Virus record (IMG/VR): IMGVR_UViG_3300036780_000209
Coordinates: 64,001-128,000 of that record
Reading direction: 5' to 3' (one strand)
Origin: a virus
Length of the DNA stretch: 64,000 nucleotides
This document shows, piece after piece, positions 1 through 64,000 of this stretch (within the stretch, counting starts at the first letter, position 1; every line of letters begins with the position of its first letter). A program made the position numbers and the translations under genes. The notes beneath the pieces are model-generated. The model saw only the letters and a program-made list of their open reading frames with translations. It searched no databases and had not been told where the DNA came from.

Positions 1-2125
1 CGGACCAGGAGTCAGTCTGGCCGGTGCGCTTGCGGTTGCCGTACCCGTACCAGGTGATGCCCTTGATCCTGACCGGAGCGTCCTCCCTGAGCGGGATCTC
101 GCGCTCGCTGCCGCCCCAGCCGCCGTAGTTGGAGACACCTCCCTCTCCCAGGCGTCTCCGGTCGGTCTCTATGTGCCCGACATCGGGCAGCTTCGCATGC
201 AGAATGACCTTGGTCGAGCCCGGCAGGTTGGTCCTGCGCTCGAAGTCGGCGAAGTGCCGGGACACCTGCTCCGTCGCGGACCAGTGCATGCCGAGGGGCT
301 TGTCCCTCAGGTGGTCGGCAATCGCCTGGGCCTGCCTGTCCGGGTCCTGGAACTGATCGTGGACGAACCGGTGCACGTCCTCGGGCAGCTCGACCGCCAG
401 CCCCCGGTGCATCAGCGGCTCGCTGCGCTTCCTGAACCGGAGCTTCCGGAGGTGCTCTCCCCACTGCTCCTCGGCCGACGGAGGCTCCCAGGCCGCCGCC
501 CCGAGGGACCGCACCCATGCCTTCCCGTCGTCAGTCCGGTCGGTGGAGTGCTTCGCCCGGGGCGTCATCTCCTGGGACCAGTTCCACATGGCCGTGGCCA
601 GGCCCTTGTGCCGATGCTGCGCGTGCACGTCGATGCTCTCGACCTGGTGCTTCGTGCCCATCCAGGAGAGCTTGCCGACTGCCTGCTCATGATCGGGGTG
701 CCAGGCCTCGATGACGTGACGGGGCCTGCGCTCTCCCTCGTCCGACGTCCGGTAGCGCATCGTGTAGTCGCCGAACTGCCGCTCGTCACCCTCCTGCTGG
801 CGGACGGCCACGTGCCGATCCGGGCCGCCTATCCGCTGCCAGGAGTGAGGTTCATGCTCCCATGCTTCAAGACCGTGCTCCTCCCACCGGGATTCATCCA
901 GGTGCTCAGGCCAGTCCGGGCGATCGGGGAGGGATGCCTCCATGTGGTGAATGCGAACCGGAGCGCCGGACTTGACAAGCGTCTCCTGCTCGTCCTTGTG
1001 GGTAAGTCCTTGCCAGCCGTGCCCTTCTACCATGGCCGAGCGCAGCTCATCGGGATCGCTGACGTGGTGAGACTTCGCGATGCTTCCGTGCATCACGACG
1101 GGAACGTGCATGTAGAACGGGCTCGGAACTGTTGTCCGCGCCTCGTGAGTCAGCGGATGCGCGAACCTGCGGGCAATGTCCTCCCGCGCCGACCAGTGCT
1201 CTCCCAGGTGCTCACCGACATGCTGGCGGATAAGGTCATGCACCGCCGGATGACCACCTGAACGGTAGGCCCCGGTGATGTCATCCGGGGCCATCTCGAT
1301 GCTGATTCCACGATGCAGTACCTGCCGGGCCGCAGCATTCCGCTCACGCCAGTTGTCCCACTGCTCCTGCTGGGCATCGTCGTCATACAGGGAGCGGAAA
1401 TGCTCGGGCTTTATGCTGGCAGCGGGAATGGAATAGTGCTTTTCCCCGGACGGGAACTCATCCTCCAGGCGGGCCATTTGCTCGGGGACGTGAAGGTGCA
1501 CCGCGTCATTCCCGTAGCCCTTCGCCTGGGCAAAAGGCGCGTTGCTGAAAAACACCACCGGGCGGCCGTGCTCGTCGTTCTCCTCCGGCTTGAACGCCAT
1601 GTCCTTCCAGATGCGGCGGGCACCTGACGGGGAAGTGTGATGCCAGAGATGGATCATCCGGGCGGCAGTCTTCTCCCCGGCCCAGCGGCCCGATCGCTCC
1701 AGGTTGAAGGCGGCGTCGAATTCCTCCGGGGTGGAAGGACGGTGCTCCGTCATCACGGGCGGCTTGCCCGGCTGGTGACGCACCACGACCGGAACGTCAT
1801 GAACTCCGGCCCGCTGCGCGGCATCCAGGCGGTGCATGCCGTTGAAGGTGGTAGGGCCTCCGTGAGCCGGGAAGTCCTCGATCGCCAGGGGGTGCTGCAC
1901 CCCGTTGCGCCGGACATCAGCGGTCAGCTCCCGCCAGTGGCGGCGGCGGGGCGGGTGGTCGTCGCAGTACCCCTGTGGCTCGGACGCGGCCAGGGTGCCG
2001 CTGGCGTCGCAGGGATAGCACTCGTGACCGTCGCGGTGCTCTCCCGAGCCCTGGCAGCACGCGCAGGACTTCCGGCCGCGACCCGGGCGGGCAGCCCCGA
2101 AGTGAGCGAGCAGGTCGGCAGTCAT
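1..2125 (-). CDS. Polyvalent multi-enzyme protein, 3'-partial (>700 aa): CxxCxGxG Zn finger, ParB/Srx-like domain, ART-like domain, R-S-E type ART, GNAT acetyltransferase, second R-S-E type ART
   Basis: Absent from the ORF track because it has no stop inside the window. Hand translation from ATG 2125 (SD AGGAGG) is open to the edge: MTADLLAHFGAARPGRGRKSCACCQGSGEH..CYPCDASG; NGVQHPL..NGMHRLDAAQRAGVHDVPV; LWHHTS..VFFSN..YG; LHRG..HWS..EQE; VHAQHRHKGLATAMW; MHRG..HWS..ERE. Confidence 0.85.
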   Translation of the reverse strand, partial: MTADLLAHFGAARPGRGRKSCACCQGSGEHRDGHECYPCDASGTLAASEPQGYCDDHPPRRRHWRELTADVRRNGVQHPLAIEDFPAHGGPTTFNGMHRLDAAQRAGVHDVPVVVRHQPGKPPVMTEHRPSTPEEFDAAFNLERSGRWAGEKTAARMIHLWHHTSPSGARRIWKDMAFKPEENDEHGRPVVFFSNAPFAQAKGYGNDAVHLHVPEQMARLEDEFPSGEKHYSIPAASIKPEHFRSLYDDDAQQEQWDNWRERNAAARQVLHRGISIEMAPDDITGAYRSGGHPAVHDLIRQHVGEHLGEHWSAREDIARRFAHPLTHEARTTVPSPFYMHVPVVMHGSIAKSHHVSDPDELRSAMVEGHGWQGLTHKDEQETLVKSGAPVRIHHMEASLPDRPDWPEHLDESRWEEHGLEAWEHEPHSWQRIGGPDRHVAVRQQEGDERQFGDYTMRYRTSDEGERRPRHVIEAWHPDHEQAVGKLSWMGTKHQVESIDVHAQHRHKGLATAMWNWSQEMTPRAKHSTDRTDDGKAWVRSLGAAAWEPPSAEEQWGEHLRKLRFRKRSEPLMHRGLAVELPEDVHRFVHDQFQDPDRQAQAIADHLRDKPLGMHWSATEQVSRHFADFERRTNLPGSTKVILHAKLPDVGHIETDRRRLGEGGVSNYGGWGGSEREIPLREDAPVRIKGITWYGYGNRKRTGQTDSWS

Positions 2126-2150
2126 TCTTCCCTCCTGCTACTTCCGTGCT

Positions 2151-2303
2151 CTACTTCATCGCGGGCTCAGGCTCCGCCTGGAACTCCGGGCACGGGCCGG
2201 CCTCGCCTCCCTTGCATCCCACTGCCTTGCAGGGCGTGGTGCCGTTGCCGTGGAGTGACCACGGGTGGTTGCAACGAGAGCACTTACCGGGATTCACCGG
2301 CAT
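2151..2303 (-). CDS. Small Cys/His-rich protein, 50 aa (MPVNPGKCSRCNHPWSLHGNGTTPCKAVGCKGGEAGPCPEFQ...)
   Basis: Hand-translated. SD GAGGTG upstream; CxxCxH-x4-H..C..C..C pattern; fills the gap after terL. Confidence 0.7.
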   Translation of the reverse strand: MPVNPGKCSRCNHPWSLHGNGTTPCKAVGCKGGEAGPCPEFQAEPEPAMK

Positions 2304-2374: not shown

Positions 2375-4477
2375 TCAAGATCGCGACATCCGGCGCGGCG
2401 AGGTGCCCCTGCCCCCGTAGCCTGCCCCGGGACGGCCCGTGCGCCCCATGCCGGAGTGCAGGCCCCGGTGCATCCCCGACTGGCCGAGCGCCAGGCCGAA
2501 CGGGTTGGAGAACTGGCCCGGGTCGAACCGCTTGTACGGGTCGTCGCCGCCGGGGAGACTCAGGCCGGGCCGCTGGCGGGCCAGGTCGCGGCCGAGGAAG
2601 GTGCCCATCTGCTCGCCGAGCAGGGCGGCCGTGACGATCGCGACGCAGTCGGCGATGTCCTTGGTCTGGACCGGGCCCGAGGTAGGGCAGATGACCTTGG
2701 ACTGGCCCTCGGGCTTCTGGAGGAACTTCAGCTCCTGGGCCGCCTCCATGTGCACCGGGGCATGCACCAGCCCCATGTTCAGGCATGCCTTGAAGGTCTC
2801 GTAGGTACTCCAGTTCAGGGCGGCCGTGGCATCGCGGACATAGACCTGGACGTTCTTCTGCAGGTGCCCGGCCCGGACGCGCTTCTGCAGCGCCTGGACC
2901 GTGGCCGGGGCATTGAACTGGTCGAACGTCAGCTCGTCCGGCTGGAACCTGGTGACCACGTTGGAGTAGATCCACTCGATGATCTCGTCGTAGTCCACGA
3001 AGTGATCGTCGTAATCCGCCGGATCCCAGAAGTGGATGAGGTCGAACACCGCGTGATTCAGGCCGTCGGGGCCGGGCTCCTCGTGGGCCAGGGCAAAGCC
3101 GAACCGGCAGTTGACGTTCGAGGGGTCACCGTGCGCCCGGTAGCTGACCAGGAGGGGTCCCCGGACCTGGTTCTCCAGGTGCGGCGGTCCCCAGTCAGGG
3201 TGGCGCTCGCCCCAGTCGGCGAACATGCCGTCCACCCGGGCGGCAGCCAGGTAGGCGTCCATCGCGGTAGCCCAGTTGGACAGGCGCTCCACCCGGAAGG
3301 CGTCCGGATTGGCGCGCTCCTCCTTGCGCATGTTGTCGTCGTAGGCCTGGATCGCCCCGCGCAGCTTTCGGAAGCGGGGAACTTCGGCGTGCTCCTGCAG
3401 GTCCCCCGTGAAGCCAGGCGGGAAGATCTCCAGCTCGTGCGCCCGCTCCCAGTCCTTGTACGGCCCCCAGGAGGGGAGCTGCAGCATGAGCTTGTTCTGG
3501 TAGACCGCCATGAGCTGGTCGTCGTGCAGCTCGCGCTGCAGGGACAGCTCCCACAGCTCGTAGAAGCGCCCTGTCATCTCCCAGGTGGAGCTGGGCAGGA
3601 TGATGAAGGCGTCGGTGCCGAACTGGTCCAGGGACGGGGTGGCGGCATTGTAGACGGCACCGAACTCGCGGGTGATCCCCGCGTTCTTGACGTGGGCGGC
3701 CTCGTCGAACCCGACCAGGAAGCCGGCCTGGCCACGGGGAGCCACCAGGGTGGACTCCCGGGGGACGATCGAGAAGCTCGCCATGTCCCGGGTCGTCCGG
3801 ATGCCCCGGGCTGCCATCTTCCGCATCCGGACGAAATCATAGGGAGCGTAAACCGTCAGCGATTCCGCCAGGGGGGCGGAAATGTATTCCGTGAAGCACG
3901 GGGCCGTCGTGATGACGTTGTAAAGGTCCCCCCAGAGGTTTTCCTTGGCCTGCTCCCTCTTGCTCGCGAAGATCATTGCCGAGAGCTGCTTGTTCGGGTC
4001 AATGCCGTAGTATTCCTGGGGGTTTCCCTTGGCCAGGTAATTCCAGAGCACGTAGGCCATGGCCAGGGAAGAGACATAGCCTTTAGCGCCACGGCGGCCG
4101 ATTGCCAGGATAACCTCGCGGAACCACCGGTAATTGTGTGCTTTCAGCCACGCGATCCGCTCGTAGACATCAGGCTGGATCCCGTTGGTGCGGGCCGTGA
4201 ACTTATTCTCGACTCCGGCGTCAGGGTTGGTCTCGTTGAAGTCGTTGATCCACTCTGCGATGACCTGGTGGTCGTAATCGGTGAACAGGTCGTCGCGGAG
4301 GAAGATGATCTTGAGCAGGGTTGCCTGGCGGGGGTAGAGATTGGGCTTGTCCAGCCAGTGCTCGCTGAGGACGAAGGTGATCGGGTCCGGGACCGGGAGG
4401 TTGTCGTACCACCCGAGCACCTCCAGGGGGTTCATCCCTCCGGTGTCGGGAGCCTCCCAGAAGCCGGGCCTCGGCAT
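2375..4477 (-). CDS. terL: Terminase large subunit
   Basis: Walker A-like GRRGAKG, Walker B GFDEAAH, motif III PSS, RNase H-fold nuclease acidic residues (HGDPS, TFDQFN, KDIAD). Start moved to ATG 4477, coupled to the upstream stop (TGAGATG). Confidence 0.9.
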   Translation of the reverse strand: MPRPGFWEAPDTGGMNPLEVLGWYDNLPVPDPITFVLSEHWLDKPNLYPRQATLLKIIFLRDDLFTDYDHQVIAEWINDFNETNPDAGVENKFTARTNGIQPDVYERIAWLKAHNYRWFREVILAIGRRGAKGYVSSLAMAYVLWNYLAKGNPQEYYGIDPNKQLSAMIFASKREQAKENLWGDLYNVITTAPCFTEYISAPLAESLTVYAPYDFVRMRKMAARGIRTTRDMASFSIVPRESTLVAPRGQAGFLVGFDEAAHVKNAGITREFGAVYNAATPSLDQFGTDAFIILPSSTWEMTGRFYELWELSLQRELHDDQLMAVYQNKLMLQLPSWGPYKDWERAHELEIFPPGFTGDLQEHAEVPRFRKLRGAIQAYDDNMRKEERANPDAFRVERLSNWATAMDAYLAAARVDGMFADWGERHPDWGPPHLENQVRGPLLVSYRAHGDPSNVNCRFGFALAHEEPGPDGLNHAVFDLIHFWDPADYDDHFVDYDEIIEWIYSNVVTRFQPDELTFDQFNAPATVQALQKRVRAGHLQKNVQVYVRDATAALNWSTYETFKACLNMGLVHAPVHMEAAQELKFLQKPEGQSKVICPTSGPVQTKDIADCVAIVTAALLGEQMGTFLGRDLARQRPGLSLPGGDDPYKRFDPGQFSNPFGLALGQSGMHRGLHSGMGRTGRPGAGYGGRGTSPRRMSRS

Positions 4478-4478
4478 C

Positions 4479-4910
4479 TCAGTGAGAGTGCCCGTGCGAG
4501 TGCGGGTGACCATGTCCGTGAGAACGGCCGTGATCCATGCCGCCGCCGGCCCTGAACTTCTTGAAGGCATCCCCCTGGTCGGTCCTGATGACCTCGCCCT
4601 TGTCCTGGCCCGGCAGCTCCAGGATGTTCTGGGTGACCTCCCAGACCTGGCGGTCCGGGTCGAAGGAGCTGAGGCGGCCGGTCACGGTGACCTCGGGCAT
4701 CGCCGATCCGGCCTGAACGACGCCCCCGACGGCGTAGCTATGCCAGTTCACGTCCACCGCGAAGCCGATGTCCTCGAAGCGGCTCCGGATCTCGCGCTCG
4801 AAGGCCTCGTAGTTGTGCGCCTTCAGGCGAGCCCGGTCCTGCAGGACGGAGAGGATCTTCGTGATCTCATCGACCTCGGAGTCAAGTACTTCTAGTACGC
4901 TGTTACCCAT
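4479..4910 (-). CDS. Hypothetical phage protein with His/Gly-rich C-terminal tail
   Basis: Typical codon usage from MGNSVLEVLDSEVDEI; coupled to terL; ends HGRSHGHGHPHSHGHSH. Confidence 0.7.
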   Translation of the reverse strand: MGNSVLEVLDSEVDEITKILSVLQDRARLKAHNYEAFEREIRSRFEDIGFAVDVNWHSYAVGGVVQAGSAMPEVTVTGRLSSFDPDRQVWEVTQNILELPGQDKGEVIRTDQGDAFKKFRAGGGMDHGRSHGHGHPHSHGHSH

Positions 4911-5446: not shown

Positions 5447-6079
5447 TCACCCCTCACTCTCCTTCCCGGCCAGGACAGGCTGCTGGCCGGTGATGATCGT
5501 CCGCATCCTCGGCGAGGCATAGGCGTCCTCGACGAAACTGCGCCACTGGGGCGGGCTCAGGTAGCCCTGGACCAGCTCGACCAGTTCCATCAGGGCGGCC
5601 TGCCACACGGAGGCGTCGATGCTGTTCTGCTGGGCGGCCTTGTCGATCTGGAGCTGCAGGCTCATCGCCTTGAGCAGGTCCTTGGCAGTGACCTCGATCT
5701 CGCCGCTGGCCAGGCGGGCGTACCCGGCCTGGATCATCGCCTGGGCAGCGTCCGGGACCTTGACCAGGGACAGGTCCTCAGTCCCGTTCTTCCGGCTTTC
5801 GAGCTGCATCCGCATCTGGAGGTGCGGGGCGGCCAGGTGCTCGGTGTGGTCCCTGATGATCTCCGGGTGCGGGCAGGCCGGCCTGCGCCCCTTGAGGAGC
5901 TGGCGGATCGCGGCCGTCGAGTAGCCCTGGGAGAGCATGTCGTCGATCTGGATCAGCCACGGCGACCGGCAGCAGGCGCAGCCGGGGTCAAACGGCTTGT
6001 CGTATTCCCTGCCCCCGATGGAAACCGTCCGGACCTCGATGTCATTCATCGCCGTCGGCGTGATCCCCGTCCCCGACAT
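5447..6079 (-). CDS. Hypothetical protein with CxxC..H..H and HTH-like segment; possible terminase small subunit
   Basis: CACC..IDDMLSQGYSTAAIRQLL..H..H followed by helical C-terminus; TerS guess is positional only. Confidence 0.55.
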   Translation of the reverse strand: MSGTGITPTAMNDIEVRTVSIGGREYDKPFDPGCACCRSPWLIQIDDMLSQGYSTAAIRQLLKGRRPACPHPEIIRDHTEHLAAPHLQMRMQLESRKNGTEDLSLVKVPDAAQAMIQAGYARLASGEIEVTAKDLLKAMSLQLQIDKAAQQNSIDASVWQAALMELVELVQGYLSPPQWRSFVEDAYASPRMRTIITGQQPVLAGKESEG

Positions 6080-6377
6080 AACTATCCAGGCCGTTCTGCA
6101 CCCGCTTAGACGGATAGAATCCGTCCCGGCTGTTCAGGTGCGGGTAGCGCCGGTTCCAGGAGCGCCGGTACATTCCCTTGCGCACCGCCGGGTCGGCGAA
6201 TCCGGTGGAGGTGTACACCTCCTTGGAAATCCGGTCCTCGTATTTCCACTCCGTCAGGATGTCGGACTTGGCACTGCGGCTCGTGACCCCTGCCAGGGAT
6301 TCCCTCAGCAGGCGGTCAGCCTCATCCTCCAGCGCCCTGCTGACTCCGTTCCGGAGCCTCATCTGCGTCATTCTCAT
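6042..6377 (-). CDS. Hypothetical protein
   Basis: Fills the gap between neighbouring minus-strand genes; start uncertain (6377/6371/6362). Confidence 0.55.
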   Translation of the reverse strand: MRMTQMRLRNGVSRALEDEADRLLRESLAGVTSRSAKSDILTEWKYEDRISKEVYTSTGFADPAVRKGMYRRSWNRRYPHLNSRDGFYPSKRVQNGLDSYVGDGDHADGDE

Positions 6378-6699
6378 CAGCTCCAGCACGATTGATCTCG
6401 TCATACAAGAGGCAGAGCCTCTTGAGCCCCTGAGTGGCGTAGATGGCCACCGGGTTGACCGGGGAGACGCCCATGAGCCGGGCGACATCCCTTTCCCGCA
6501 TGTCGTCGTAGAGGAACATCTCGATAGCCTCGGCCTGCCGGGCCGAAAGCTCAGTGCGGCGGTGGTAAAGGGCCTGGATGTCCCACAGGCAGTATTCCTC
6601 GCCGTCTGGCCCCGGGAGGGTATCGACGCCCTCGGTCTCGAACAGCGCCTCGAAAAGCTGCAGGTACCGGAAAAGCTCTCTCAGGGTCCGGTGGTCCAA
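6322..6699 (-). CDS. Sigma-70 region 4-like HTH protein (candidate phage transcription factor)
   Basis: LSARQAEAIEMFLYDDMRERDVARLMGVS..V..YATQGLKRL matches the sigma region 4 pattern; no region 2 visible in 125 aa. Confidence 0.75.
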   Translation of the reverse strand: MDHRTLRELFRYLQLFEALFETEGVDTLPGPDGEEYCLWDIQALYHRRTELSARQAEAIEMFLYDDMRERDVARLMGVSPVNPVAIYATQGLKRLCLLYDEINRAGADENDADEAPERSQQGAGG

Positions 6700-6752
6700 C
6701 GTCCTTGATGCTCCCTAAGCCCAGAAGTTAAGAACTGCCCTATCTGAGCCAG

Positions 6753-6782
6753 ATGTTAACCGATGAAAAGGCCACGTGTCAT
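6753..6782 (-). promoter_or_regulatory. Host sigma70-type promoter upstream of the sigma-4 gene
   Basis: ATGACA-N18-TAACAT on the minus strand in an AT-rich gap. Confidence 0.5.
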
Positions 6783-6826
6783 CACCGGCTAAAGAAGCAG
6801 CGTTTTTCCTGCAAGGAGAATTGATA

Positions 6827-6856
6827 AAGCCCGGCCGCTGATTAGCAACCGGGCTT
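6827..6856 (-). terminator. Intrinsic terminator ending the replication/recombination operon
   Basis: Stem AAGCCCGG..CCGGGCTT with inner GCT/AGC pairing, followed by TAT/T-rich sequence on the minus strand, just after the 6874 stop. Confidence 0.6.
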
Positions 6857-6873
6857 GTATCTTTACGAGAAAA

Positions 6874-7557
6874 TCAGGTCTTGGTGACCTGCATCAGGAT
6901 CTGTTCCAGGCGCGTCATGGCGCGGACCAGGGCATCTGCACGCCGCGAGAGAATCGACTTGAATACGCCGAAATATCTCTCATCGAGAGAATGAGTCACG
7001 CCGGCCTGGGCCTTGTCGTCCACCGTGGACTTGCCCGGGACGTTCTGGAAGCCGTCGGCGAAGCGCTCCTCCCAGGCCACTTTCGCGAGCATCGCCTCGC
7101 CCCACAGCCCGGCTGCCACCTGCTCCCACTCGAACAGGCGGCCCGTGATCTCCTGGAGGTACTGCAGCCGCTCCCGGTCCGAGATCCTCAGCCAGTTCTC
7201 CACCGGGCTCCCGTTATCGTGCACCTTCCAGGTGGGGCGGCCGTCGGGACCGGTCTTCATCGTCCCGTCCGGGCTGATCTCCGGCTCGCGCACCAGGAGG
7301 TACAGCCGGTCCATGAGCGCGAACGCGCCCCCGAACTGGGACCTCATCACCTTCTCGGCCTGGACCTTGATCTCCTCGATCACGATCCGGTCCTCGCCGC
7401 GCCAGGAAGTGCGCATACGGGAGAAGTTCGGGGTGCGGAAGTTGCGCCTGCGGTCATCCGGCAGGTCAGGCTCCACGGGCTCGCTGCCCCCCGGACTCAG
7501 CGGCCTCTCGCTGTCAGCGAGCACCCGGTTGATCTGCTGCCTGCTCTTCTCGTCCAT
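6874..7557 (-). CDS. Hypothetical helical protein
   Basis: SD AGGAG before MDEKSRQQ; typical codon usage. Confidence 0.7.
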   Translation of the reverse strand: MDEKSRQQINRVLADSERPLSPGGSEPVEPDLPDDRRRNFRTPNFSRMRTSWRGEDRIVIEEIKVQAEKVMRSQFGGAFALMDRLYLLVREPEISPDGTMKTGPDGRPTWKVHDNGSPVENWLRISDRERLQYLQEITGRLFEWEQVAAGLWGEAMLAKVAWEERFADGFQNVPGKSTVDDKAQAGVTHSLDERYFGVFKSILSRRADALVRAMTRLEQILMQVTKT

Positions 7558-8173
7558 CCTGGCTCCTCTTGAGGTCATGCAGGAACGTCAGCGCCAGAGC
7601 CGCCGCGTCCCTCTCGTGCTCATTCCAGTTGCGCCCGGAGGATTCAGGTATATACCTGGCCACCGACAGCGCGATGTCCTTCTTGGCCCTGGCCGTCGGC
7701 GGCCTGCGCCCTCCGCAGAGCACGGCATAGGCATGCTGGGCAGACACCGGGCGGAAATGCTCTCCGGCATGCATGTAGACGAAAGTGCTCGCGATCAGCG
7801 CCGACTCGGTCCGGTGCCCACCGCTGCCCACCCAGGGGGTCTCGCAGACGATCCAGGCACACGCCTCCACCGCGCTGCGGATGGTCGTCCCCAGCTCGTC
7901 GTTCAGCAACCGGGCCTTGTCCCAGGTCGCCATGAACCCGGTGTGACCGGTGGACGGCCGGATCGTGCGCTTGTCCCAGACGTTCACCAGCGGGCCGCCG
8001 GCGTAATTCGCTCCCATGACCTCCAGCCGTACCCAGCCGCAGTTCGTCAGTGTCGGGTCGAATGCCAGGACATACTCCCCGGTCGCGAAATCGGAAATGA
8101 GAGGCGGCCGGAAAACATCGCCTTTCGGCTTTCCGGCGGAGAGCTTTTCCCGGAACCTGTCGATATCATTCAC
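7514..8173 (-). CDS. ruvC: RuvC-like Holliday junction resolvase
   Basis: VLAFDPTLTNCGW, IVCETP, AKKDI, NEHERDAAALA; GTGA coupling at 8170-8173. Confidence 0.8.
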   Translation of the reverse strand: MNDIDRFREKLSAGKPKGDVFRPPLISDFATGEYVLAFDPTLTNCGWVRLEVMGANYAGGPLVNVWDKRTIRPSTGHTGFMATWDKARLLNDELGTTIRSAVEACAWIVCETPWVGSGGHRTESALIASTFVYMHAGEHFRPVSAQHAYAVLCGGRRPPTARAKKDIALSVARYIPESSGRNWNEHERDAAALALTFLHDLKRSQDGREEQAADQPGAR

Positions 8174-8943
8174 GCGATGATCTCCTGACCGTTCTCGACA
8201 GCCGCGAGCACCCTCTTGTACTTGGTCTCCACGGCCACGGCCAGGGCCGGGTCGAATTCCAGGTGGTATTCCCGCATCTCCCAGGGATTGCCCATGGCAA
8301 TGAAGAACACGATGAACTTCCGCAGCCCGGTGATCCGCATGTACTCCTGGGCCTGGGCGAAGTAATACGGCCACTTCCCGATGAAGAACTCCGCGTCCAT
8401 GTCCGGGGCCTTGGACAGGCTCATCGGCCGGATTGTCTTAAGGTCCCAGCCCCGGGTTCCCTCCAGGTTCAGGATGCCGTCCAGGTGCCCCCTGGAGCGC
8501 GTTACGGGGTCAATCCCGCCGTGCTCCCAGCAGTAGCCCGCCACGCCCCTCCGGACCCTCCTGGAGGCCCTGGGGAGCTTGCAGGCGGGGCACGGCTCCG
8601 CCGGGAGCGGGACGGTCACGCCGAGCTGGTCCATGGCCTCCTGGACGACCGAGTGGACCATGGTGCCGAACATCGTGGACATGATGCCGACGTAGCCCCA
8701 GTCCCGCTGCTCGACCTGGCGGCCGGTCATGTAGAGGTAGAGTTCCCGGTCGCTCATCAGCGGGTGCGTGCTGGCATGGAACCACCCGTCCGGCTGGCGG
8801 GCGGCCGACCGCGTCACCCGCAGGTCGTAGCTGAACTCGATGGACTCGTCCTGGAAGAACCTCAGCAGCAGGGGCTTGACCAGGCACCCGTCGGCGGCGA
8901 CTTTCGCCATCGCGCTCAGCCTGGTGGGCATTCCCTCAGCCAT
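8170..8943 (-). CDS. Cas4/RecB-family PD-(D/E)XK exonuclease with Cys insert
   Basis: FHAS, GTMVH, GHLDG, WDLKT, QAQEY motifs; CPAC..C insert. Confidence 0.8.
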   Translation of the reverse strand: MAEGMPTRLSAMAKVAADGCLVKPLLLRFFQDESIEFSYDLRVTRSAARQPDGWFHASTHPLMSDRELYLYMTGRQVEQRDWGYVGIMSTMFGTMVHSVVQEAMDQLGVTVPLPAEPCPACKLPRASRRVRRGVAGYCWEHGGIDPVTRSRGHLDGILNLEGTRGWDLKTIRPMSLSKAPDMDAEFFIGKWPYYFAQAQEYMRITGLRKFIVFFIAMGNPWEMREYHLEFDPALAVAVETKYKRVLAAVENGQEIIA

Positions 8944-9122
8944 TCCAGGGTGAACCTGATCCCGGTACCATCCGGTGCGACCTCGGCAGCCGTCACCCTC
9001 CCCGGGTCCTCTGCCTTCCCGAAGCGGATCACTGCCTCCTTGCCGACAACTGAGTCGAACGCACCGGGAGCGTAAGCGGTCCCCGGCGGAGCCGGGTACC
9101 AGAAGATGATCTTCGTCGTCAC
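8916..9122 (-). CDS. Small hypothetical protein
   Basis: GTGA-coupled to the upstream stop at 9119. Confidence 0.55.
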   Translation of the reverse strand: MTTKIIFWYPAPPGTAYAPGAFDSVVGKEAVIRFGKAEDPGRVTAAEVAPDGTGIRFTLEWLRECPPG

Positions 9123-9997
9123 GCCTGGCCGACCCGGGTATCGAGATTCCCGTCGATCCACAGGTCGCCGTGGCGCACGATCTTCTCGTTCACGAACAGG
9201 CGCTTGCCCTGCCCGTACGGCTCGACCCGCACGGAATCAACCTCGAAGAACGTGACGTGGCCGTCCGCCTGGTAGTACGTGCCGGCCTTCCTGTCCCCGG
9301 TCACGAAGACCGCCGTCCAGGGGAGCTGAGGGATCAGCGGCGACAGGTTGCGCTGCGGCGGGGAGACCGGGGCGGGCATGTACGGGCTTACATGCGAGGC
9401 CGGCTGCGCCGCCAGGCGTTCCTCGGCCGCGACAGCTCGCTCCTCGGCGTCCCTGGCCCGGGCGGCCTCCCCGGTCAGCTCGGCTTCCAGGCGGGCCACG
9501 TCATGCCTGAGCTGGCGGATGGCGTCGTCCTGCTCCAGGTTCTCGCCGATCAGCGTGACCCCGTCGGCGGAGACCTTGCTCAGTGCCTCCCGCAGCTCGG
9601 TGACCTGCTCATCAGTGAGCTGGGCATCAGGGGCGCTGATGATCCGGGCAGGATAGCGGGAAACGTCGATCAGCTCCGCCTCGTCGTCGAGCAGCACCAG
9701 GACCCAGTCCCGGTAGGTTCGCAGCGAGTCGTCCTCGTACCAGCGCAGCGGCATCATCGGCCGCTCGCCGGCGGCCTGCTCGGCGAGCTTGTCGAGCATC
9801 TCGGTGGTGATCGTGTGGCTCTTGGCCCGGGTGGACTTGCAGTCCCAGGCAAAGGCGAACGGCTGCTCGGTATGGTCCTGGCGGCCGTCAGCCTGGTCAG
9901 TCCACTGGCTGCCCGAGGCCTTGGTGCGCCGGCCTCCCAGCAGGGCGACGACGTGGCTCTCGTGCTTCTCCGCCATCTTCATGCGGTCGATGGTCAT
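9119..9997 (-). CDS. Hjc-like PD-(D/E)XK resolvase with coiled-coil and C-terminal beta domain
   Basis: KHE..V..LGGRRTKASGS..ADG..WDCKST; ATGA coupling with the recA stop. Confidence 0.7.
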   Translation of the reverse strand: MTIDRMKMAEKHESHVVALLGGRRTKASGSQWTDQADGRQDHTEQPFAFAWDCKSTRAKSHTITTEMLDKLAEQAAGERPMMPLRWYEDDSLRTYRDWVLVLLDDEAELIDVSRYPARIISAPDAQLTDEQVTELREALSKVSADGVTLIGENLEQDDAIRQLRHDVARLEAELTGEAARARDAEERAVAAEERLAAQPASHVSPYMPAPVSPPQRNLSPLIPQLPWTAVFVTGDRKAGTYYQADGHVTFFEVDSVRVEPYGQGKRLFVNEKIVRHGDLWIDGNLDTRVGQA

Positions 9998-11049
9998 GCT
10001 GATGCTCCCTCGAAGATCTTCTGCCGGACGTTTTCCAGCAGCTCGGGCCGCTCTGCCAGGAGGGAAACCATGGCCTCCCGGCCGTTGACCCTGTCCGCTC
10101 CCGGAACCGTGTAGTAAGAGCCAGCGCGCTCGATCGCCCCGCTGCGGACCCCGATTGTGGCATACTCGTCCGCCACGTTGATCCCGGCCTCGCCCCACTT
10201 CTCGGTGTCCCGGTTACTGACCCAGAACTCGGCGACAGCGCCGGGAGCAGCTACCTTGGAGCGCTCCACGTGAGCCTTGAAGCAGACCGAGACGATCTCC
10301 TCGGTGCCGTCGAATTTCAGCTTCTTCGGCTCCCTGCCGTCCCCGCCCATCCGGGCCATCCGGACCTTCGTCGTGGTGGCGTGCTGCATGGCCTTCGGGC
10401 CGGCCGACACGTCCGAAAGGGCCATCGAGCTGATCACGACGCGGAGCTGGTTGATCAGCAGCACCGTGGTGGAGGTCTGGCTGGCCAGGCTGGCCACGTG
10501 CTTGACCATGCGGGTGATGACCTGGGCATTCTTGCCGACCATCTCCTTGTCAGCATCGCGGATCTCGTCTTCCTTGCCCTTGCCGCCGTAAAGCGCCTTG
10601 GCGCTCTCCATGCCGCCGATCGAGTCCACCGTGGCCATCGAGTAGAATCCCGACCGGACGCACTCGCGGAGCATGTCACTGGCCTCCTCGGAGGTCTCGG
10701 GCCGCAGGTGCACCCAGTGGTCCGGGTCCGTCAGCAGGCCCATCTTCCAGGCCCAGTCATAGCTCCAGGTCTTCTCCATGTCCACGAAGGCAACGGCCAG
10801 GCCCGGGTAGGCGAGCTGCTGCTGCACCATCGAGTAGATGGCGATCAGCGTCTTGGCCGAGTCCGGTGCCCCGACCAGCTCGTGGATGCCGCCGCGCTTC
10901 CAGCCCCCGACCCGCAGCGCGTAGTCGAGGGTGAGCGACCCGGTGGACACCACCTCGATCTTCTGCTGCGGAGCCTGGACCATCCGGTCCCCGTAGGCGG
11001 TGCCGAGCTTGTCGCGGAACTGGCTCAGGTTCGTCATCTTCGGTGGCAT
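9994..11049 (-). CDS. recA: RecA/UvsX-family recombinase
   Basis: STGSLTLDYALRVGG..G..ELVG, AFVDME, VDSIG, LINQLR, KVAAP, GAIERAGSYY. Confidence 0.93.
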   Translation of the reverse strand: MPPKMTNLSQFRDKLGTAYGDRMVQAPQQKIEVVSTGSLTLDYALRVGGWKRGGIHELVGAPDSAKTLIAIYSMVQQQLAYPGLAVAFVDMEKTWSYDWAWKMGLLTDPDHWVHLRPETSEEASDMLRECVRSGFYSMATVDSIGGMESAKALYGGKGKEDEIRDADKEMVGKNAQVITRMVKHVASLASQTSTTVLLINQLRVVISSMALSDVSAGPKAMQHATTTKVRMARMGGDGREPKKLKFDGTEEIVSVCFKAHVERSKVAAPGAVAEFWVSNRDTEKWGEAGINVADEYATIGVRSGAIERAGSYYTVPGADRVNGREAMVSLLAERPELLENVRQKIFEGASA

Positions 11050-14000: not shown

Positions 14001-14388
14001 GCAGCTCGTAATCGAGCCGGGGCTTGTGGTAGAAGCCGCTGACCGACGCCTCGGTGGAGGCCGCCCACAGGTCGTGCAGCCCCTGGTCATCCATGGCCAG
14101 CATGACCAGGTGCCGGTTATCCCGCAGTGCCTGCTGGGCGGTCTTGTCCGCCGGAGCGGGCCGCAGCGTCCGGTCAGGGACGAAATAGCCCTCCATCCCG
14201 AAGACCGGCTTTATCCCGGCCTTGTCGCACTCCTGCTGATGCTCCGGGTGGCCCGCGCAATTGCCGTGGTCAGTGATCGCCACAGCCGGGTTCCCGTCGG
14301 CAGCAGCCTGGGCCACCACTTCGGCAACGGTGGACAAACCATCCAAAGCACTATATTCGGTGTGCGTATGAAGATGAGCGAATGCCAT
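11050..14388 (-). CDS. dnaE: DNA polymerase III alpha subunit (PHP + polymerase + HhH + OB)
   Basis: HLHTHTEYSALDG, ITDHG, RGSAAGS, FERF, PDFDMDF, GKHPAG, KLDFL, GFNKSHSVSY. Confidence 0.97.
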   Translation of the reverse strand: MAFAHLHTHTEYSALDGLSTVAEVVAQAAADGNPAVAITDHGNCAGHPEHQQECDKAGIKPVFGMEGYFVPDRTLRPAPADKTAQQALRDNRHLVMLAMDDQGLHDLWAASTEASVSGFYHKPRLDYELLERYGSRLIVTSGCLGGLVSRQLLSSNFEGAFQRITRLREILGDRFYLELQTNALPEQVKLNKMLASISDGMGIPLVAAADSHFTTADKTDTHRLWMACQTSPANDDFWHYVHMHTEQETRQALAYLGPEVADRSVRNAAEIAEMCNARIGGHADPPVFTSSARQDASMLLDLCMEAWAARPMKSAPARVYLDRLESEWKLVAEKQLAGCYLIVNDVCQWARSQGILVGFRGSAAGSLMAYLLRITSVDPVQHGLMFERFVTPGRTSLPDFDMDFPSSARDMIQDYVIGKYGADKVVRVGTHLRYRSKGVLNKLFSIMGDKLPQEWFDDSRQIASIIDEAESHTAGLGMPWDELMEQQEELLAPYVAKYPGIFGYASQLVGRLNSYGKHPAGLVISTSRPLEGQLPMRAGEGGILISQWGYRTLDILGMLKLDFLTIRTLDSVQMAVNLIRERTGAEIDVSAWDGEYDDPLVWDEVGSGHTLGMFQVETSLGQQGCRRMRPRSIADLADLVALVRPGPRNSGMAESYYRRRAGTEEVDFLHERLEETLSSRFGIMLFQEDVMAACRLLAGYDSAEADEVRQILGKKKVEKIGPAGEKFVSRCISNGVDQEKAQEIWDKMAEYARYGFNKSHSVSYAVLAFQTAWLKAHYPVETFTAILSTLKDKDRMPEYATDARRMGLTILPPDARFCGGSFLPEGLGVRYGLSSIKGIGPAALRDIQAGQPYSSYDDFITRSKVDSGVLYALARSGALDALVISRRGVVQALEADRTGESTKCVHKEDGFSGPGGLPCHFNWSTEPVPIRISEKTGRELKSKPKPLPRRCTRACRHYTPPGVTDLSMIPEYSPQDLFRLDSEIFGCWMSDSVFGLMERFGAGTRAQARDIALMLPGAQPGSYPMLAVAGGAHAARTRKGGTMYWLSLVSEVSSLDVAVFQPRRDDEPDLTTAVRFLRPGSLVLATVRKSRYFQDGTARTSWRLDDILLMGG

Positions 14389-27991: not shown

Positions 27992-28024
27992 ATAGCTTCC
28001 GGGGAGAGTCCGGGGCTACGGCAG
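27992..28024 (-). promoter_or_regulatory. Candidate phage late promoter CTG-N22-GAAG-N4 (endolysin, leaderless)
   Basis: CTGCC..CCCCGGAAG-ctat-GTG; same spacing at six other late genes. Confidence 0.65.
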
Positions 28025-41466: not shown

Positions 41467-41515
41467 GCTGCCTCCCCTCCGTACTTCCGGGGACCAGGGG
41501 AAGGTTCACCAGCCG

Positions 41516-48997: not shown

Positions 48998-49030
48998 CTT
49001 GCTTCCGGGGATGAGGAGGGGGTTTGCCAG
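48998..49030 (-). promoter_or_regulatory. Candidate phage late promoter (baseplate operon)
   Basis: CTGGC-N20-GAAG-caag-G, overlapping the divergent -35 at 49024. Confidence 0.6.
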
Positions 49031-57652: not shown

Positions 57653-57685
57653 ACTCCTTCCAGGGAGCTACAGGCCGGAGGGCAG
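57653..57685 (-). promoter_or_regulatory. Candidate phage late promoter (sheath)
   Basis: CTGCC-N20-GAAG-gagt-G. Confidence 0.6.
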
Positions 57686-63915: not shown

Positions 63916-64000
63916 CAGGTGGCTCCGTTCTCCGGGTCAAGCGGGTGGGCAATCCCGGTCAGTTGCTTATGGGTGTCCGCCGCGATGCGGAGATGACGCT
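63915..64000 (-). CDS. 3' end of an upstream gene (partial)
   Basis: ..RHLRIAADTHKQLTGIAHPLDPENGAT-stop, TGATG-coupled to 63915. Confidence 0.5.
   Translation of the reverse strand, partial: RHLRIAADTHKQLTGIAHPLDPENGAT

What the first reader, a model, noticed from the sequence alone, without database searches (positions are those of the whole stretch)
1..2125. Hidden polyvalent effector: three ADP-ribosyltransferase-like domains, GNAT, ParB-like and Zn finger in one protein next to the terminase
Seen: a minus-strand ORF from ATG 2125 is open to the window edge and is missing from the track. It strings together a CxxCxGxG Zn finger (~1990-2070), a ParB/Srx-like domain (NGMHRL, ~1780-1940), an H-x-T/F-S/Y-G ART-like domain (~1410-1660), an R-S-E ART (HRG..HWS..EQE, ~930-1370), a GNAT (VHAQHRHKGLATAM, ~510-730) and a second, clearly paralogous R-S-E ART (HRG..HWS..ERE, ~50-470; both share EQW and APVRI). 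Established: R-S-ExE ARTs include T4 Alt/ModA/ModB, which modify host proteins, and 'polyvalent proteins' of phages concatenate such conflict domains. Inference: it lies behind a late-promoter-like motif (2141-2170), so it is probably made late, packaged in the head and injected to ADP-ribosylate/acetylate host or defence proteins.
Basis: partly seen in the sequence, partly recalled or inferred. Interest (0 to 1): 0.88.

Follow-up and report, generated by a model that had tools for sequence, protein, structure and literature searches.

The report
Phage polyvalent effector, endonuclease-split gene
The hidden ORF is real and is the front part of a multi-enzyme "polyvalent" phage protein of about 2,150 residues, a known kind of phage weapon, and its gene has been cut in two by a mobile HNH endonuclease gene.

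Summary
Observation confirmed. The minus-strand ORF from ATG 2125 runs 1,879 nt past the window edge and encodes 1,334 aa.
- a DnaJ-type zinc finger
- a ParB_N domain
- a minimal H-type ART fold (Z 8.0 to Tpt1)
- two paralogous R-S-E-like ART folds (31% identity; best fold matches are pertussis/cholera-type ARTs)
- a small GNAT

Outside the window the protein continues with an unassigned module, an ART-PolyVal-like domain and half of a nucleotidyltransferase-like domain. A NUMOD4-HNH endonuclease gene (GC 54% versus about 65%) interrupts the gene there. The next ORF (about 822 aa) supplies the other half, followed by ParB, a zinc module, a third R-S-E ART and a 2H phosphoesterase.

51 homologues carry this domain unbroken. 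Three other phage contigs are split at the same site, one of them by a different endonuclease family. No intron was found.

The gene follows the terminase large subunit, and this order is conserved in relatives. The "late promoter" is only an ORF end plus a ribosome-binding site. Replication genes lie upstream and the portal is about 26 kb away, so virion packaging remains an inference.

This is a known kind (polyvalent proteins, Iyer 2017) in a new variant. Another reader of this scan noted the same ~2,130-aa polyprotein on this same genome.

The parts
1..2125 (-). 5' part of polyvalent gene piece A (residues 1-708 of the 1,334-aa P0002). Three further parts lie OUTSIDE the window, to its left, and so cannot be listed as parts. 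(a) Genome 62121-64000: rest of piece A, holding unassigned module D7 (residues 716-915), an ART-PolyVal-like domain (922-1192), the N-half of the NTase-like domain (1190-1314) and a 20-residue tail read from the insert. (b) Genome 61574-62176: a free-standing NUMOD4 + HNH_3 endonuclease gene (200 aa). (c) Genome 59125-61593: piece B (about 822 aa), holding the C-half of the NTase-like domain, a second ParB, a Cys-rich module, a third R-S-E ART, an unassigned segment and a 2H phosphoesterase.
   Evidence: In the window; GC3 0.83; 509 homologues. Outside the window. The HNH gene has GC 0.544 against 0.63-0.67 in the flanks, and is 51% identical to the endonuclease at the same site in L006.
2131..2136 (-). 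Shine-Dalgarno AGGAGG, 5 nt before ATG 2125
   Evidence: sequence read
1934..2125 (-). N-terminal zinc module (residues 1-64): CxCCxGxGxH ... CxxCxxxG ... C, then PRRRHW
   Evidence: Alignment A10 has invariant C21, C23, C24, H30, C36, C39, C54. The best PDB profile hits are the DnaJ Cys-rich domain 1exk (E 0.013) and anti-TRAP 3lcz.
1658..1948 (-). ParB_N / sulfiredoxin-type domain (residues 60-156; NGMHR at 95-99)
   Evidence: PF02195 scores 18.1 bits on this copy, below the 26.3 cut-off. Homologue P0010 is 57% identical here and scores 35 bits. phrog_6218 matches at E 5e-4.
1376..1672 (-). Minimal ART-fold domain of H-[FY]-E type (residues 152-250). H162 and T164 lie in LWHHTS, FFS at 192-194, G227 and E228 in GEKHY.
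   Evidence: Alignment A2 gives invariant H, T, G and E. The AF2 model has pLDDT 89.1. VIA gives Z 8.0, rmsd 2.5 A, 80 aligned to Tpt1 8tfi; the next matches are TreX, diphtheria toxin and PARPs.
791..1363 (-). R-S-E-like ART domain 1 (residues 255-445): LHRGIS 270-275, GEHWSA 308-313, DEQETL 378-383
   Evidence: It is a paralogue of domain 2 and belongs to the same HMM family, with 169 domains in 100 proteins. It is a row of alignment A1.
482..808 (-). Small GNAT acetyltransferase domain (residues 440-548; motif A HRHKGLATAM at 504-513)
   Evidence: PF00583 scores only 12.8 bits on this copy. All but 2 of the 23 weak PDB profile hits are named acetyltransferases (incl. mycothiol synthase); the other 2 are 1ozp (Rv0819) and RibT; all align at this motif. 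The homologous domain of P0009 passes PF13508 with 38.1 bits against a cut-off of 27.
11..472 (-). R-S-E-like ART domain 2 (residues 552-705): MHRGLA 572-577, GMHWSA 612-617, SEREIP 673-678
   Evidence: In alignment A1, G and the second E are invariant and H-R-G and W are at least 90% conserved. The AF2 model has pLDDT 90.2, with R on strand 1, W-S at the end of strand 2 and E at the start of strand 5. Foldseek's top hits are pertussis S1, PltA, cholera/LT and TreX (E 3e-3). VIA gives Z 5-6 to ART-superfamily chains only. Atlas fold neighbours include DUF3990, ART-PolyVal, FRG and RES.
2151..2303 (-). 50-aa Cys-rich ORF between terminase and polyvalent gene.
   Evidence: not conserved in locus L005
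2375..4570 (-). Terminase large subunit, immediately upstream on the same strand
   Evidence: tblastn gives 32% identity over 83% to Rhodococcus phage E3 gp5, E 1e-89. It is 45-50% identical to the gene upstream of the polyvalent gene in L004 and L005.

Best explanation
Window 1-2125 encodes the first 708 residues of a phage polyvalent protein. This is a string of independent small enzyme domains that a roughly 166-kb actinobacteriophage uses against its host.

In the ancestor the whole protein was one chain of about 2,150 residues. Its domain order was: DnaJ-type Zn finger, ParB_N, minimal H-type ART, R-S-E ART, GNAT, R-S-E ART, unknown module, ART-PolyVal-like ART, Pol-beta-like nucleotidyltransferase, ParB, Cys-rich module, R-S-E ART, unknown segment, 2H phosphoesterase.

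In this phage a free-standing NUMOD4-HNH homing endonuclease gene has inserted inside the nucleotidyltransferase domain. The gene is therefore now two cistrons, of 1,334 aa and about 822 aa. The second cistron has its own AAGGAG-ATG start inside the end of the endonuclease gene.

Shown here: the ORF, the domain homologies and folds, the conserved catalytic-type residues, the insertion, and its recurrence at the same site in other phages.

Inferred:
(a) The two polypeptides re-associate through the split domain, with the third acidic residue (D18 of piece B) laid next to the D-x-D strand of piece A.
(b) The ART domains use NAD+ to ADP-ribosylate host or defence macromolecules. The GNAT acetylates. 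The ParB domains act as NTP-dependent nickases or NTPases. The 2H domain removes cyclic or 2'-5' nucleotide signals or RNA ends.
(c) The protein is co-expressed with the terminase, probably loaded into the capsid, possibly cut at [KRH]-[TE]-A-[ASV] linkers, and delivered with the DNA so that it acts at the very start of infection.
For: ORF and coding signal.

Family: 33 and 509 homologues, mostly 1,000-4,000 aa, carry shuffled copies of the same modules plus Arr-ms, NUDIX, LigT and ART-PolyVal Pfam domains. This matches the definition in Iyer et al. 2017 (PMC5512222).

Folds. The R-S-E domain model has pLDDT 90. Its top Foldseek hits are all R-S-E ARTs, and all 50 listed VIA rows (Z 4.3-6.1; 43 chains reached Z>=5) are ART-superfamily chains. 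The minimal ART model has pLDDT 89 and Z 8.0 to Tpt1. The R, W-S and E positions fall on strands 1, 2 and 5.

ParB, GNAT, Zn finger and 2H.

Split. 51 homologues have the domain contiguous, with a junction gap of -3 to +4 residues. The insert is about 611 nt, of which the endonuclease ORF takes 603. GC is 54% against 65% in the flanks. The same site is split in L005 and L006/7 by a NUMOD4-HNH that in L006 is 51% identical, and in L004 by an Endonuclease_7 gene.

Reassembly. The complex model scores 0.87 against a best control of 0.09. This mark was reached by 58 of 80 solved complexes and 2 of 110 mismatched pairs. The runs share at least 70% of contacts and the partner's pLDDT is at least 83. 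Halves of one domain tend to pass this test.

Packaging. The order terminase, small ORF(s), polyvalent gene is conserved in L004, L005 and L006. Relative P0032 fuses a Mu-type portal to the D7 module and an ART. The linker motif is enriched 5-fold at domain borders, 76 observed against 15.9+/-3.9 in shuffles.
Against: This copy scores below the Pfam cut-offs for ParB_N, GNAT and ART-PolyVal, so those assignments lean on homologues.

ART fold matches are moderate (Foldseek E about 3e-3, TM about 0.4, Z 5-8). The R-S-E reading is not unique, because H next to R is also at least 90% conserved and the first E of ExE varies.

The NTase assignment rests on the GS...DxD motif and a language-model lead only, with no Pfam or PDB hit.

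No MuF, portal or peptidase domain was found in this protein. No MuF, HK97-capsid or Phage_portal Pfam hit occurs in the genome. Upstream genes on the same strand are replication and recombination genes, and the portal is about 26 kb away. In cultured relatives (E3, Skog) the terminase is not followed by such a gene.

Confidence: 0.7

Rival explanations
1. The protein and its split are as described, but it is not packaged. It is made inside the infected cell together with the replication and recombination genes. It acts there on host or defence proteins, nucleotide signals and RNA ends, as T4 ModA and ModB do.
For: The same-strand upstream neighbours are DNA polymerase, a UvsX-like recombinase, a resolvase and a Cas4-like exonuclease, and a UDG-family gene lies downstream. 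The portal is about 26 kb away. No MuF or portal domain was found in the protein. The 'late promoter' is not supported.
Against: Terminase-to-polyvalent adjacency is conserved in at least three other contigs. A relative is fused to a portal. The recurrent linker motif suggests processing. Published analysis predicts virion delivery for this protein class (PMC5512222, PMC9503650).
Confidence: 0.3
2. The endonuclease insertion has broken the protein. The nucleotidyltransferase domain is dead, and pieces A and B either act independently or piece B is poorly made.
For: The split lies inside a folded domain, just before the strand predicted to carry the third acidic residue. Piece A gains a 20-residue foreign tail.
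Against: No residues are lost at the junction. Piece B has a strong AAGGAG-N7-ATG start. Both pieces keep high GC3 (0.77 and 0.83) and conserved motifs. The same split persists in four diverged phages, with the flanking halves still about 50% identical. The complex model supports re-association, 0.87 against 0.09. Aeh1 NrdA and phage 25 gp43 are precedents for functional split enzymes (PMC2988022).
Confidence: 0.2
3. The endonuclease sits in a self-splicing intron or an intein, so a single protein of about 2,150 aa is still made.
For: Two different endonuclease families occupy the same site in different phages, a pattern often seen at intron insertion sites.
Against: Rfam gave no hit, including the permissive search. 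Only about 7 nt of the roughly 611-nt insert lie outside the endonuclease ORF, which leaves no room for a ribozyme core. The three ORFs are in three different frames with stops, which excludes an intein. In all four split loci the downstream ORF starts 2-8 codons before the conserved F/Y-D-x-T-W.
Confidence: 0.04
4. The R-S-E-like domains are not protein ADP-ribosyltransferases. They could be NADases, nucleic-acid or small-molecule modifying ARTs, or non-catalytic NAD/ADPr binders.
For: Structural neighbours include Tpt1 (RNA), Arr (rifampicin), Scabin (DNA), RES and FRG (NAD+-processing (signal-generating) or putative NADase domains per PMC9503650) at similar scores. No Pfam family covers the domain. 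H beside R is conserved as well.
Against: Foldseek's best matches are protein-modifying toxins. The H-R-G, W-S/T and x-E motifs sit on the canonical strands. These arguments do not decide the target.
Confidence: 0.2

Closest known systems
Polyvalent proteins of phages and conjugative elements (Iyer, Burroughs, Anand, de Souza, Aravind 2017, PMC5512222)
   Same: It is a large phage protein that strings together disparate enzymatic domains, including several ARTs, GNAT, Pol-beta NTase, ParB-like and 2H domains. It lies beside a packaging gene. One domain resembles ART-PolyVal (PF18760).
   Different: No zincin peptidase, MuF or portal domain was detected. [quoted passage not shown] The NTase domains described there come from Firmicute conjugative elements. 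Here the gene is split by a homing endonuclease.
T4 Alt (head-packaged R-S-E ADP-ribosyltransferase) and MuF- or portal-fused ARTs (PMC9503650)
   Same: It is a phage ART with R / S / ExE-type motifs, encoded near packaging genes. The proposed mode is injection with the DNA and modification of host proteins.
   Different: No sequence match to Alt/VIP2 families was found, and the fold neighbours are pertussis/cholera/TreX-type. Packaging is not shown. The ART is present in three paralogous copies among ten other domains.
Aeromonas phage Aeh1 NrdA split by mobE, T4 gp39/gp60 split by mobA, phage 25 gp43 (genes in pieces; PMC2988022)
   Same: A free-standing HNH-type endonuclease gene is inserted in a functionally critical part of a host gene. 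This gives two polypeptides that must reassemble. Related phages carry the uninterrupted gene.
   Different: The host gene is an accessory effector rather than an essential replication enzyme. The same site is occupied in four diverged phages, and by two endonuclease families (NUMOD4-HNH and Endonuclease_7).
tRNA 2'-phosphotransferase Tpt1/KptA and the diphtheria-toxin/PARP H-Y-E ARTs
   Same: The 99-residue domain at residues 152-250 superposes on their ART core (Z 8.0 and 7.0). It keeps H on strand 1 and E on strand 5.
   Different: Sequence identity is only 11-18%. The domain lacks Tpt1's N-terminal RNA-binding domain and its R-H-R-R tetrad (the tetrad is stated from my own knowledge). No Pfam or PDB sequence match was found.

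Membership tests
Polyvalent proteins (Iyer et al. 2017) | Two or more domains of disparate biochemical activity in one polypeptide of a phage or mobile element | tested here: met
   At least six domain types lie in piece A and five in piece B. The record is a virus record with a terminase, a portal and a DNA polymerase.
Polyvalent proteins (Iyer et al. 2017) | Delivery with the DNA: virion association, late or structural gene context, or fusion to MuF, portal or N4 RNAP | tested here: inconclusive
   The gene lies next to the terminase, with conserved order, and relative P0032 is fused to a portal. However, replication genes lie upstream, the portal is about 26 kb away and no MuF was found.
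Polyvalent proteins (Iyer et al. 2017) | Embedded zincin-like metallopeptidase for self-processing (a common theme, not obligatory) | tested here: not met
   No peptidase family was found in Pfam scans of either piece. A recurrent linker motif may instead mark cleavage in trans.
ART superfamily, R-S-E clade (residues 255-445 and 552-705) | ART fold | tested here: met
   The AF2 model has pLDDT 90.2. Foldseek's best hits are pertussis S1, PltA, cholera/LT and TreX (E 3e-3 to 0.1). VIA gives Z 5-6.1, rmsd 3.1-3.9 A, 89-105 aligned, to ART-superfamily chains only.
ART superfamily, R-S-E clade (residues 255-445 and 552-705) | Arg on strand 1, Ser(-Thr-Ser) on strand 2, (Q/E)-x-Glu on strand 5 | tested here: inconclusive
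   R574 lies in H-R-G on strand 1, W-S616 at the end of strand 2 and invariant E676 at the start of strand 5. However, only one S/T is present, the first E varies (E/D/N), and the neighbouring H is equally conserved.
ART superfamily, R-S-E clade (residues 255-445 and 552-705) | NAD+-dependent ADP-ribosyl transfer | not testable with these tools
   This needs an enzyme assay.
ART superfamily, H-Y-[EDQ] type (residues 152-250) | ART fold with His on strand 1, an aromatic residue on strand 2 and an acidic residue on strand 5 | tested here: met
   The model has pLDDT 89.1. VIA gives Z 8.0, rmsd 2.5 A, 80 of 99 aligned to Tpt1, and Z 7.0 to diphtheria toxin. H162, T164, G227 and E228 are invariant, with F-F-S on strand 2.
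ART-PolyVal, PF18760 (residues 922-1192, outside the window) | Score at or above Pfam's gathering threshold (31.2 bits) | tested here: not met
   This copy scores 18.8 bits, E 0.003. Six of 27 homologous segments match, best E 4e-7. It is a divergent relative, not a certified member.
GNAT acetyltransferases (PF00583 / PF13508) | Pfam score above threshold and the acetyl-CoA motif A (Q/R-x-x-G-x-G/A) | tested here: inconclusive
   This copy scores 12.8 bits against a 20.7 cut-off. The motif R-H-K-G-L-A is present, with G invariant. All but 2 of the 23 weak PDB hits are named acetyltransferases (incl. mycothiol synthase). The homologous domain in P0009 passes with 38.1 bits. The fold was not modelled.
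ParB_N / sulfiredoxin (PF02195) | Pfam score above threshold and the conserved G-x-x-R active-site motif | tested here: inconclusive
   This copy scores 18.1 bits against 26.3. The motif G-M-H-R is present. Homologue P0010, 57% identical here, scores 35 bits.
Pol-beta-type nucleotidyltransferase (split domain) | G-S ... D-x-D plus a third acidic residue on the adjacent strand; family profile match | tested here: inconclusive
   G-S and D-x-D are invariant. D18 of piece B is modelled next to the DxD strand. No Pfam or PDB match was found. The Atlas feature search points to viral 'nucleotidyltransferase' clusters at 0.88-0.90.
Free-standing HNH homing endonuclease | HNH and DNA-binding modules, own translation signals, and presence/absence polymorphism at one site among homologous genes | tested here: met
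   NUMOD4 and HNH_3 score above their cut-offs. AGGAGA lies before its ATG. GC is 54% against 65%. 51 alleles are intact and 4 are occupied. Cleavage activity was not tested.
Group I intron or intein | Ribozyme core, or in-frame splicing domain, around the endonuclease | tested here: not met
   No Rfam match at E<=1 or at gathering scores in three relatives. About 7 nt lie outside the ORF, and the ORFs are in three frames with stops.

The most novel reading that the evidence does not exclude
A so far uncatalogued R-S-E-type ART family has no Pfam model and occurs in up to six copies per protein in hundreds of metagenomic phage proteins. It may be the main warhead of polyvalent effectors in a clade of roughly 160-kb actinophages. 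In some of these phages the effector would work as a two-chain enzyme, held together by a nucleotidyltransferase domain whose active site is assembled across a homing-endonuclease split. The whole would be loaded into the capsid and cut at [KRH]-[TE]-A-[ASV] linkers.
Probability: 0.3. Interest if true: 0.65.

Novelty: new variant of a known kind. Interest (0 to 1): 0.5.

Why it matters
Polyvalent proteins are predicted to be first-minute weapons of phages, yet almost none has been tested.

This one gives a compact, well-delimited set of candidate NAD+-using and acetyl-CoA-using domains, with clear catalytic residues to mutate. It also defines an R-S-E-like ART family that current domain libraries miss.

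The recurrent endonuclease split inside a folded domain is a natural experiment in protein fragment complementation. It also marks a homing site that two endonuclease families exploit.

For annotation, it shows that the 1,334-aa and 822-aa ORFs flanking an HNH gene should be read as one effector.

Tried and rejected
- Rfam was searched over the junction (permissive mode) and over three related loci. It gave no intron or other RNA family.
- Profile searches of PDB sequences gave nothing usable for the R-S-E family, the minimal ART, D7, the ART-PolyVal-like domain or the NTase-like domain.
- Pfam scans of all members of A1, A5 and A7 found no family.
- hhalign of D7 against the R-S-E family, of the ART-PolyVal-like domain against the minimal ART, and of the minimal ART against the R-S-E family found no relation.
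- From memory I thought residues 570-655 of piece B (LFHAS...IYMS) might be Arr-like. Neither Pfam nor a PDB sequence search supports this, so the segment is left unassigned.
- tblastn of the 1,334-aa protein against 50,697 phage records gave only five weak partial hits, so there are no cultured close relatives.
- Pfam MuF, Phage_portal and HK97 capsid models gave no hit in the genome. The portal was then found with PHROGs.
- PHROG and Pfam scans of six downstream ORFs found only a UDG-family domain.
- CTG-N22-GAAG was tested as a promoter and occurs at chance level. The sigma-70 and terminator scan found none.
- A genome-wide count of the linker motif per ORF had counts too small to link the effector to virion proteins.
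- Self-BLAST of the whole protein missed the paralogy. The pairwise domain comparison found it.
- Complex prediction failed four times before it ran.
Those parts are now described inside the first part and in the full report.


Full report
THE ORF

The minus-strand frame from ATG 2125 is open to the left edge of the window, giving 708 aa. The window is bases 64001-128000 of a 166,498-bp virus record. In that record the frame continues to a stop at genome 62121, giving 1,334 aa (P0002).

Long chance ORFs are common in this 66% GC DNA; a 419-aa frame lies on the opposite strand. This one is coding, for three reasons:
- GC by codon position is 0.70/0.48/0.83.
- AGGAGG lies 5 nt before the ATG.
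- An exhaustive HMMER search found 509 related proteins at E<=1e-3 and 43 at E<=1e-30.

Most relatives are 1,000-4,000 aa, and several come from contigs of 155-167 kb.

DOMAINS IN THE WINDOW

I cut the protein by the local matches to homologues and iterated each piece against the 174 collected proteins.

1. Residues 1-64. Invariant C21, C23, C24, H30, C36, C39 and C54 sit in a CxCCxGxGxH...CxxCxxxG...C pattern, followed by PRRRHW. The profile's best PDB matches are the DnaJ Cys-rich domain (1exk, E 0.013) and anti-TRAP.

2. Residues 60-156. ParB_N scores 18.1 bits on this copy, below the cut-off. P0010 is 57% identical here and scores 35 bits. The G-M-H-R motif is present.

3. Residues 152-250. 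This is a 99-residue module that also occurs as free-standing proteins of about 90-140 aa. Its invariant residues are H162, T164, G227 and E228.
   - The AlphaFold model built from 26 sequences has pLDDT 89.
   - Its neighbours are all ART-superfamily proteins. Tpt1/KptA gives Z 8.0 (rmsd 2.5 A, 80 residues). TreX/TreTu and diphtheria toxin give Z about 7. PARPs and ExoA give Z 5-6.

4. Residues 255-445 and 552-705. These are paralogues, 31% identical with E 7e-11. They belong to one large family with about 170-180 domains in about 100 of the collected proteins, up to six copies per protein.
   - The alignment shows H-R-G, G-x-H-W-S/T and an invariant Glu in x-E-(V/I)-P.
   - The model has pLDDT 90. 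It puts R574 on strand 1, W615-S616 at the end of strand 2 and E676 at the start of strand 5, which is the canonical R-S-E layout.
   - Foldseek's best 40 hits are pertussis S1, PltA, cholera/LT, typhoid toxin and TreX/TreTu (E from 3e-3).
   - VIA gives Z 5-6 to ART-superfamily chains only, including Tpt1, Arr-2 and Scabin.
   - Atlas fold neighbours are viral hypotheticals followed by DUF3990, ART-PolyVal, FRG and RES.
   - No Pfam model and no PDB sequence profile hit covers the family.
   - Caveats: the scores are moderate, H next to R is equally conserved, and the first E of ExE varies.

5. Residues 440-548. This is a small GNAT. This copy scores only 12.8 bits. All but 2 of the 23 weak PDB hits are named acetyltransferases (incl. 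mycothiol synthase) aligned on R-H-K-G-L-A-T-A-M. The homologous domain of P0009 passes Pfam with 38 bits.

BEYOND THE WINDOW: THE REST OF THE PROTEIN AND THE SPLIT

- Residues 716-915 are a conserved module with no detectable family. The same module follows a Mu-type portal in P0032.
- Residues 922-1192 (W-F-H-G-S...) resemble ART-PolyVal. This copy scores 18.8 bits, and 6 of 27 homologues match.
- Residues 1190-1314 carry G-S...D-L-D and then stop making sense. The last 20 residues have no counterpart in any homologue.

Immediately downstream, in another frame, lies a NUMOD4 + HNH_3 endonuclease gene (genome 62176-61574). After it, in the third frame, comes an ORF whose residues from F17 (FDMTWYVN...) continue the interrupted domain.

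Evidence that this is an insertion into a once-continuous domain:
- In 51 homologues the two halves are contiguous, with a junction gap of -3 to +4 residues.
- P0036 (2,663 aa) shows the full order in one chain...NTase, ParB, ParB, Zn, R-S-E, 2H.
- The insert is about 611 nt, of which 603 are the endonuclease ORF. AGGAGA precedes its ATG.
- AAGGAG-N7-ATG for the downstream piece lies inside its 3' end.
- Its GC is 54% against 63-67% in the flanks.

There is no room for a ribozyme core, and Rfam finds none. Three different frames exclude an intein.

Piece B (about 822 aa, genome 59125-61593) adds:
- a second ParB domain
- a Cys-rich module
- a third R-S-E domain (hhalign to the family gives probability 96%, E 2e-9)
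- an unassigned stretch
- a 2H phosphoesterase (PF13563, E 6e-13)

THE SPLIT RECURS

Three other proteins in the set end at the same position. Their contigs show the following:
- L006/L007: a NUMOD4-HNH gene 51% identical to ours, followed by an ORF that starts M-x4-F-D-Q-T-W-Y.
- L005: the same type of HNH ORF, uncalled in the record, followed by F-D-Q-T-W-F.
- L004: an Endonuclease_7-family gene followed by S-Y-D-L-T-W-F.

So one site in this conserved domain is a homing target used by two endonuclease families. The split alleles have persisted while the flanking halves diverged to about 50% identity.

This is the 'genes in pieces' situation known from Aeh1 nrdA/mobE, T4 39/60/mobA and phage 25 gene 43 (PMC2988022).

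A co-fold of the two halves with their alignments scored 0.87 against a best control of 0.09. That mark was reached by 58 of 80 solved complexes and 2 of 110 mismatched pairs. The runs agree in at least 70% of contacts, and the partner's pLDDT is at least 83. The model lays D18-M-T-W of piece B against the D-x-D strand of piece A. Halves of one domain tend to pass such a test, so this supports reassembly but does not show it.

The NTase label itself rests on the motif and on a language-model lead to viral 'nucleotidyltransferase' clusters.

GENOMIC CONTEXT AND THE DELIVERY INFERENCE

The upstream gene (window 2375-4570) is a terminase large subunit. It is 32% identical over 83% to Rhodococcus phage E3 gp5 (E 1e-89). 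254 actinophage records match, mostly from Mycobacterium, Streptomyces, Gordonia and Rhodococcus phages. The phage is therefore a large actinophage with no close cultured relative.

- It is the end of a 50-aa Cys-rich ORF (2151-2303) plus the spacer before the Shine-Dalgarno.
- No sigma-70-like site or terminator lies between 1900 and 5200.
- CTG-N22-GAAG occurs 11 times against 8.9+/-2.8 expected.

For co-expression with packaging:
- The order terminase, small ORF(s), polyvalent gene is kept in L004, L005 and L006, whose terminases are 45-50% identical to ours.
- One relative is a portal fusion.
- The motif [TE]-A-[ASV], usually preceded by K/R/H, is five-fold enriched at domain borders of the family. 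It occurs 76 times in 6,629 linker residues against 195 in 84,592 core residues. Shuffles give 15.9+/-3.9. This is what a protease-processed polyprotein would look like.

Against:
- The same strand carries DNA polymerase, a UvsX-like recombinase, a resolvase and a Cas4-like exonuclease just upstream. The portal is about 26 kb away.
- No MuF, portal or peptidase domain is in the protein.
- Cultured relatives E3 and Skog have no such gene after the terminase.
- Expression data could not be obtained.

I therefore rate delivery in the virion at roughly even odds.

COMPARISON WITH WHAT IS KNOWN

The protein fits the definition of polyvalent proteins (PMC5512222). These are many disparate enzymatic domains in one phage polypeptide, with ARTs as the commonest protein-modifying domain, alongside GNAT, Pol-beta NTase, ParB-like and 2H domains.

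It differs in four ways:
- Its main ART is R-S-E-like, whereas that paper says R-S-E Alt/VIP2 ARTs are not in genuine polyvalent proteins. Later work notes Alt/VIP2 ARTs fused to MuF (PMC9503650).
- It has no embedded peptidase.
- It comes from actinophages.
- Its gene is split.

I class it as a new variant of a known kind. Another first-stage note on an overlapping window of the same genome (e1-5669304) reached the same overall reading of a ~2,130-aa polyprotein. I derived the reading independently and tested it here.

Noticed in passing
G000:C1:3222-8507, minus strand (locus L012); outside the window: A second giant ORF of about 1,761 aa in the same phage carries one R-S-E-type ART domain of the same family (residues 224-362, E 4e-51). 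Its N-terminal 390 residues match the N-termini of other polyvalent-like proteins. The phage therefore has two such effectors.
   Followed up: partly
Inter-domain linkers, e.g. window 1658-1675 (EKTAAR); genome 63981-63998 (EHTAAV); piece B KTAS, REAAA, STAAV: The motif [KRH]-[TE]-A-[ASV] is five-fold enriched at domain borders across 174 homologous proteins, 76 observed against 15.9+/-3.9 in shuffles. These are candidate protease sites. A genome-wide per-ORF count was too sparse to link it to virion proteins.
   Followed up: partly
L005:2788-5610: The terminase large subunit of this related contig is 940 aa. It has an insertion of about 265 aa between ...GQAAFCL and CLGFDE, with the flanks 50-60% identical to ours. 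It looks like an intein at the Walker B region. The terminase of Mycobacterium phage Phrappuccino also aligns in two pieces spread over 2.9 kb.
   Followed up: no
window 27996-28024, 41484-41512, 49002-49030, 57657-57685 (minus strand): Four of the eleven chance-level CTG-N22-GAAG matches share a longer C-rich box ending in (C/T)CC(C/T)GGAAG. This may be a real motif, either a ribosome-binding context or a promoter element. The site before the polyvalent gene lacks it.
   Followed up: no
window 2151-2303, minus strand: A 50-aa Cys-rich ORF (C-x2-C ... C-x4-C ... C) with its own GAGGTG ribosome-binding site lies between the terminase and the polyvalent gene. It is not similar to the small ORF at the same place in L005.
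   Followed up: partly
window 5447-14388, minus strand: A replication and recombination block lies on the same strand, upstream of the terminase. It holds DNA polymerase (11050-14388, phrog_405, E 1e-265), a UvsX-like recombinase (9994-11049), a Holliday junction resolvase domain (9119-10198) and a Cas4/RecE-like exonuclease (8170-8943).
   Followed up: partly
L003:5056-5781 (genome 57056-57781), minus strand: A uracil-DNA glycosylase superfamily protein (PF03167, E 3e-27) lies two genes downstream of piece B.
   Followed up: no
genome 63009-63218 (P0002 residues ~970-1039): The ART-PolyVal-like domain gives a weak hit (E 3e-4) to the central part of the R-S-E family profile: G-x-H-F-T-A-D against G-x-H-W-S-x-D, and V-H-A-R-L against V-L-H-A-x-L-P. 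This hints that the two ART families are related.
   Followed up: no
L003:8520-8730 (piece B residues 296-352): A Cys-rich module (CGSC...C...C-D-E-W) lies between the second ParB and the third ART. It is found in only three proteins of the set. Another first-stage note called it HiPIP-like. It was not tested here.
   Followed up: no
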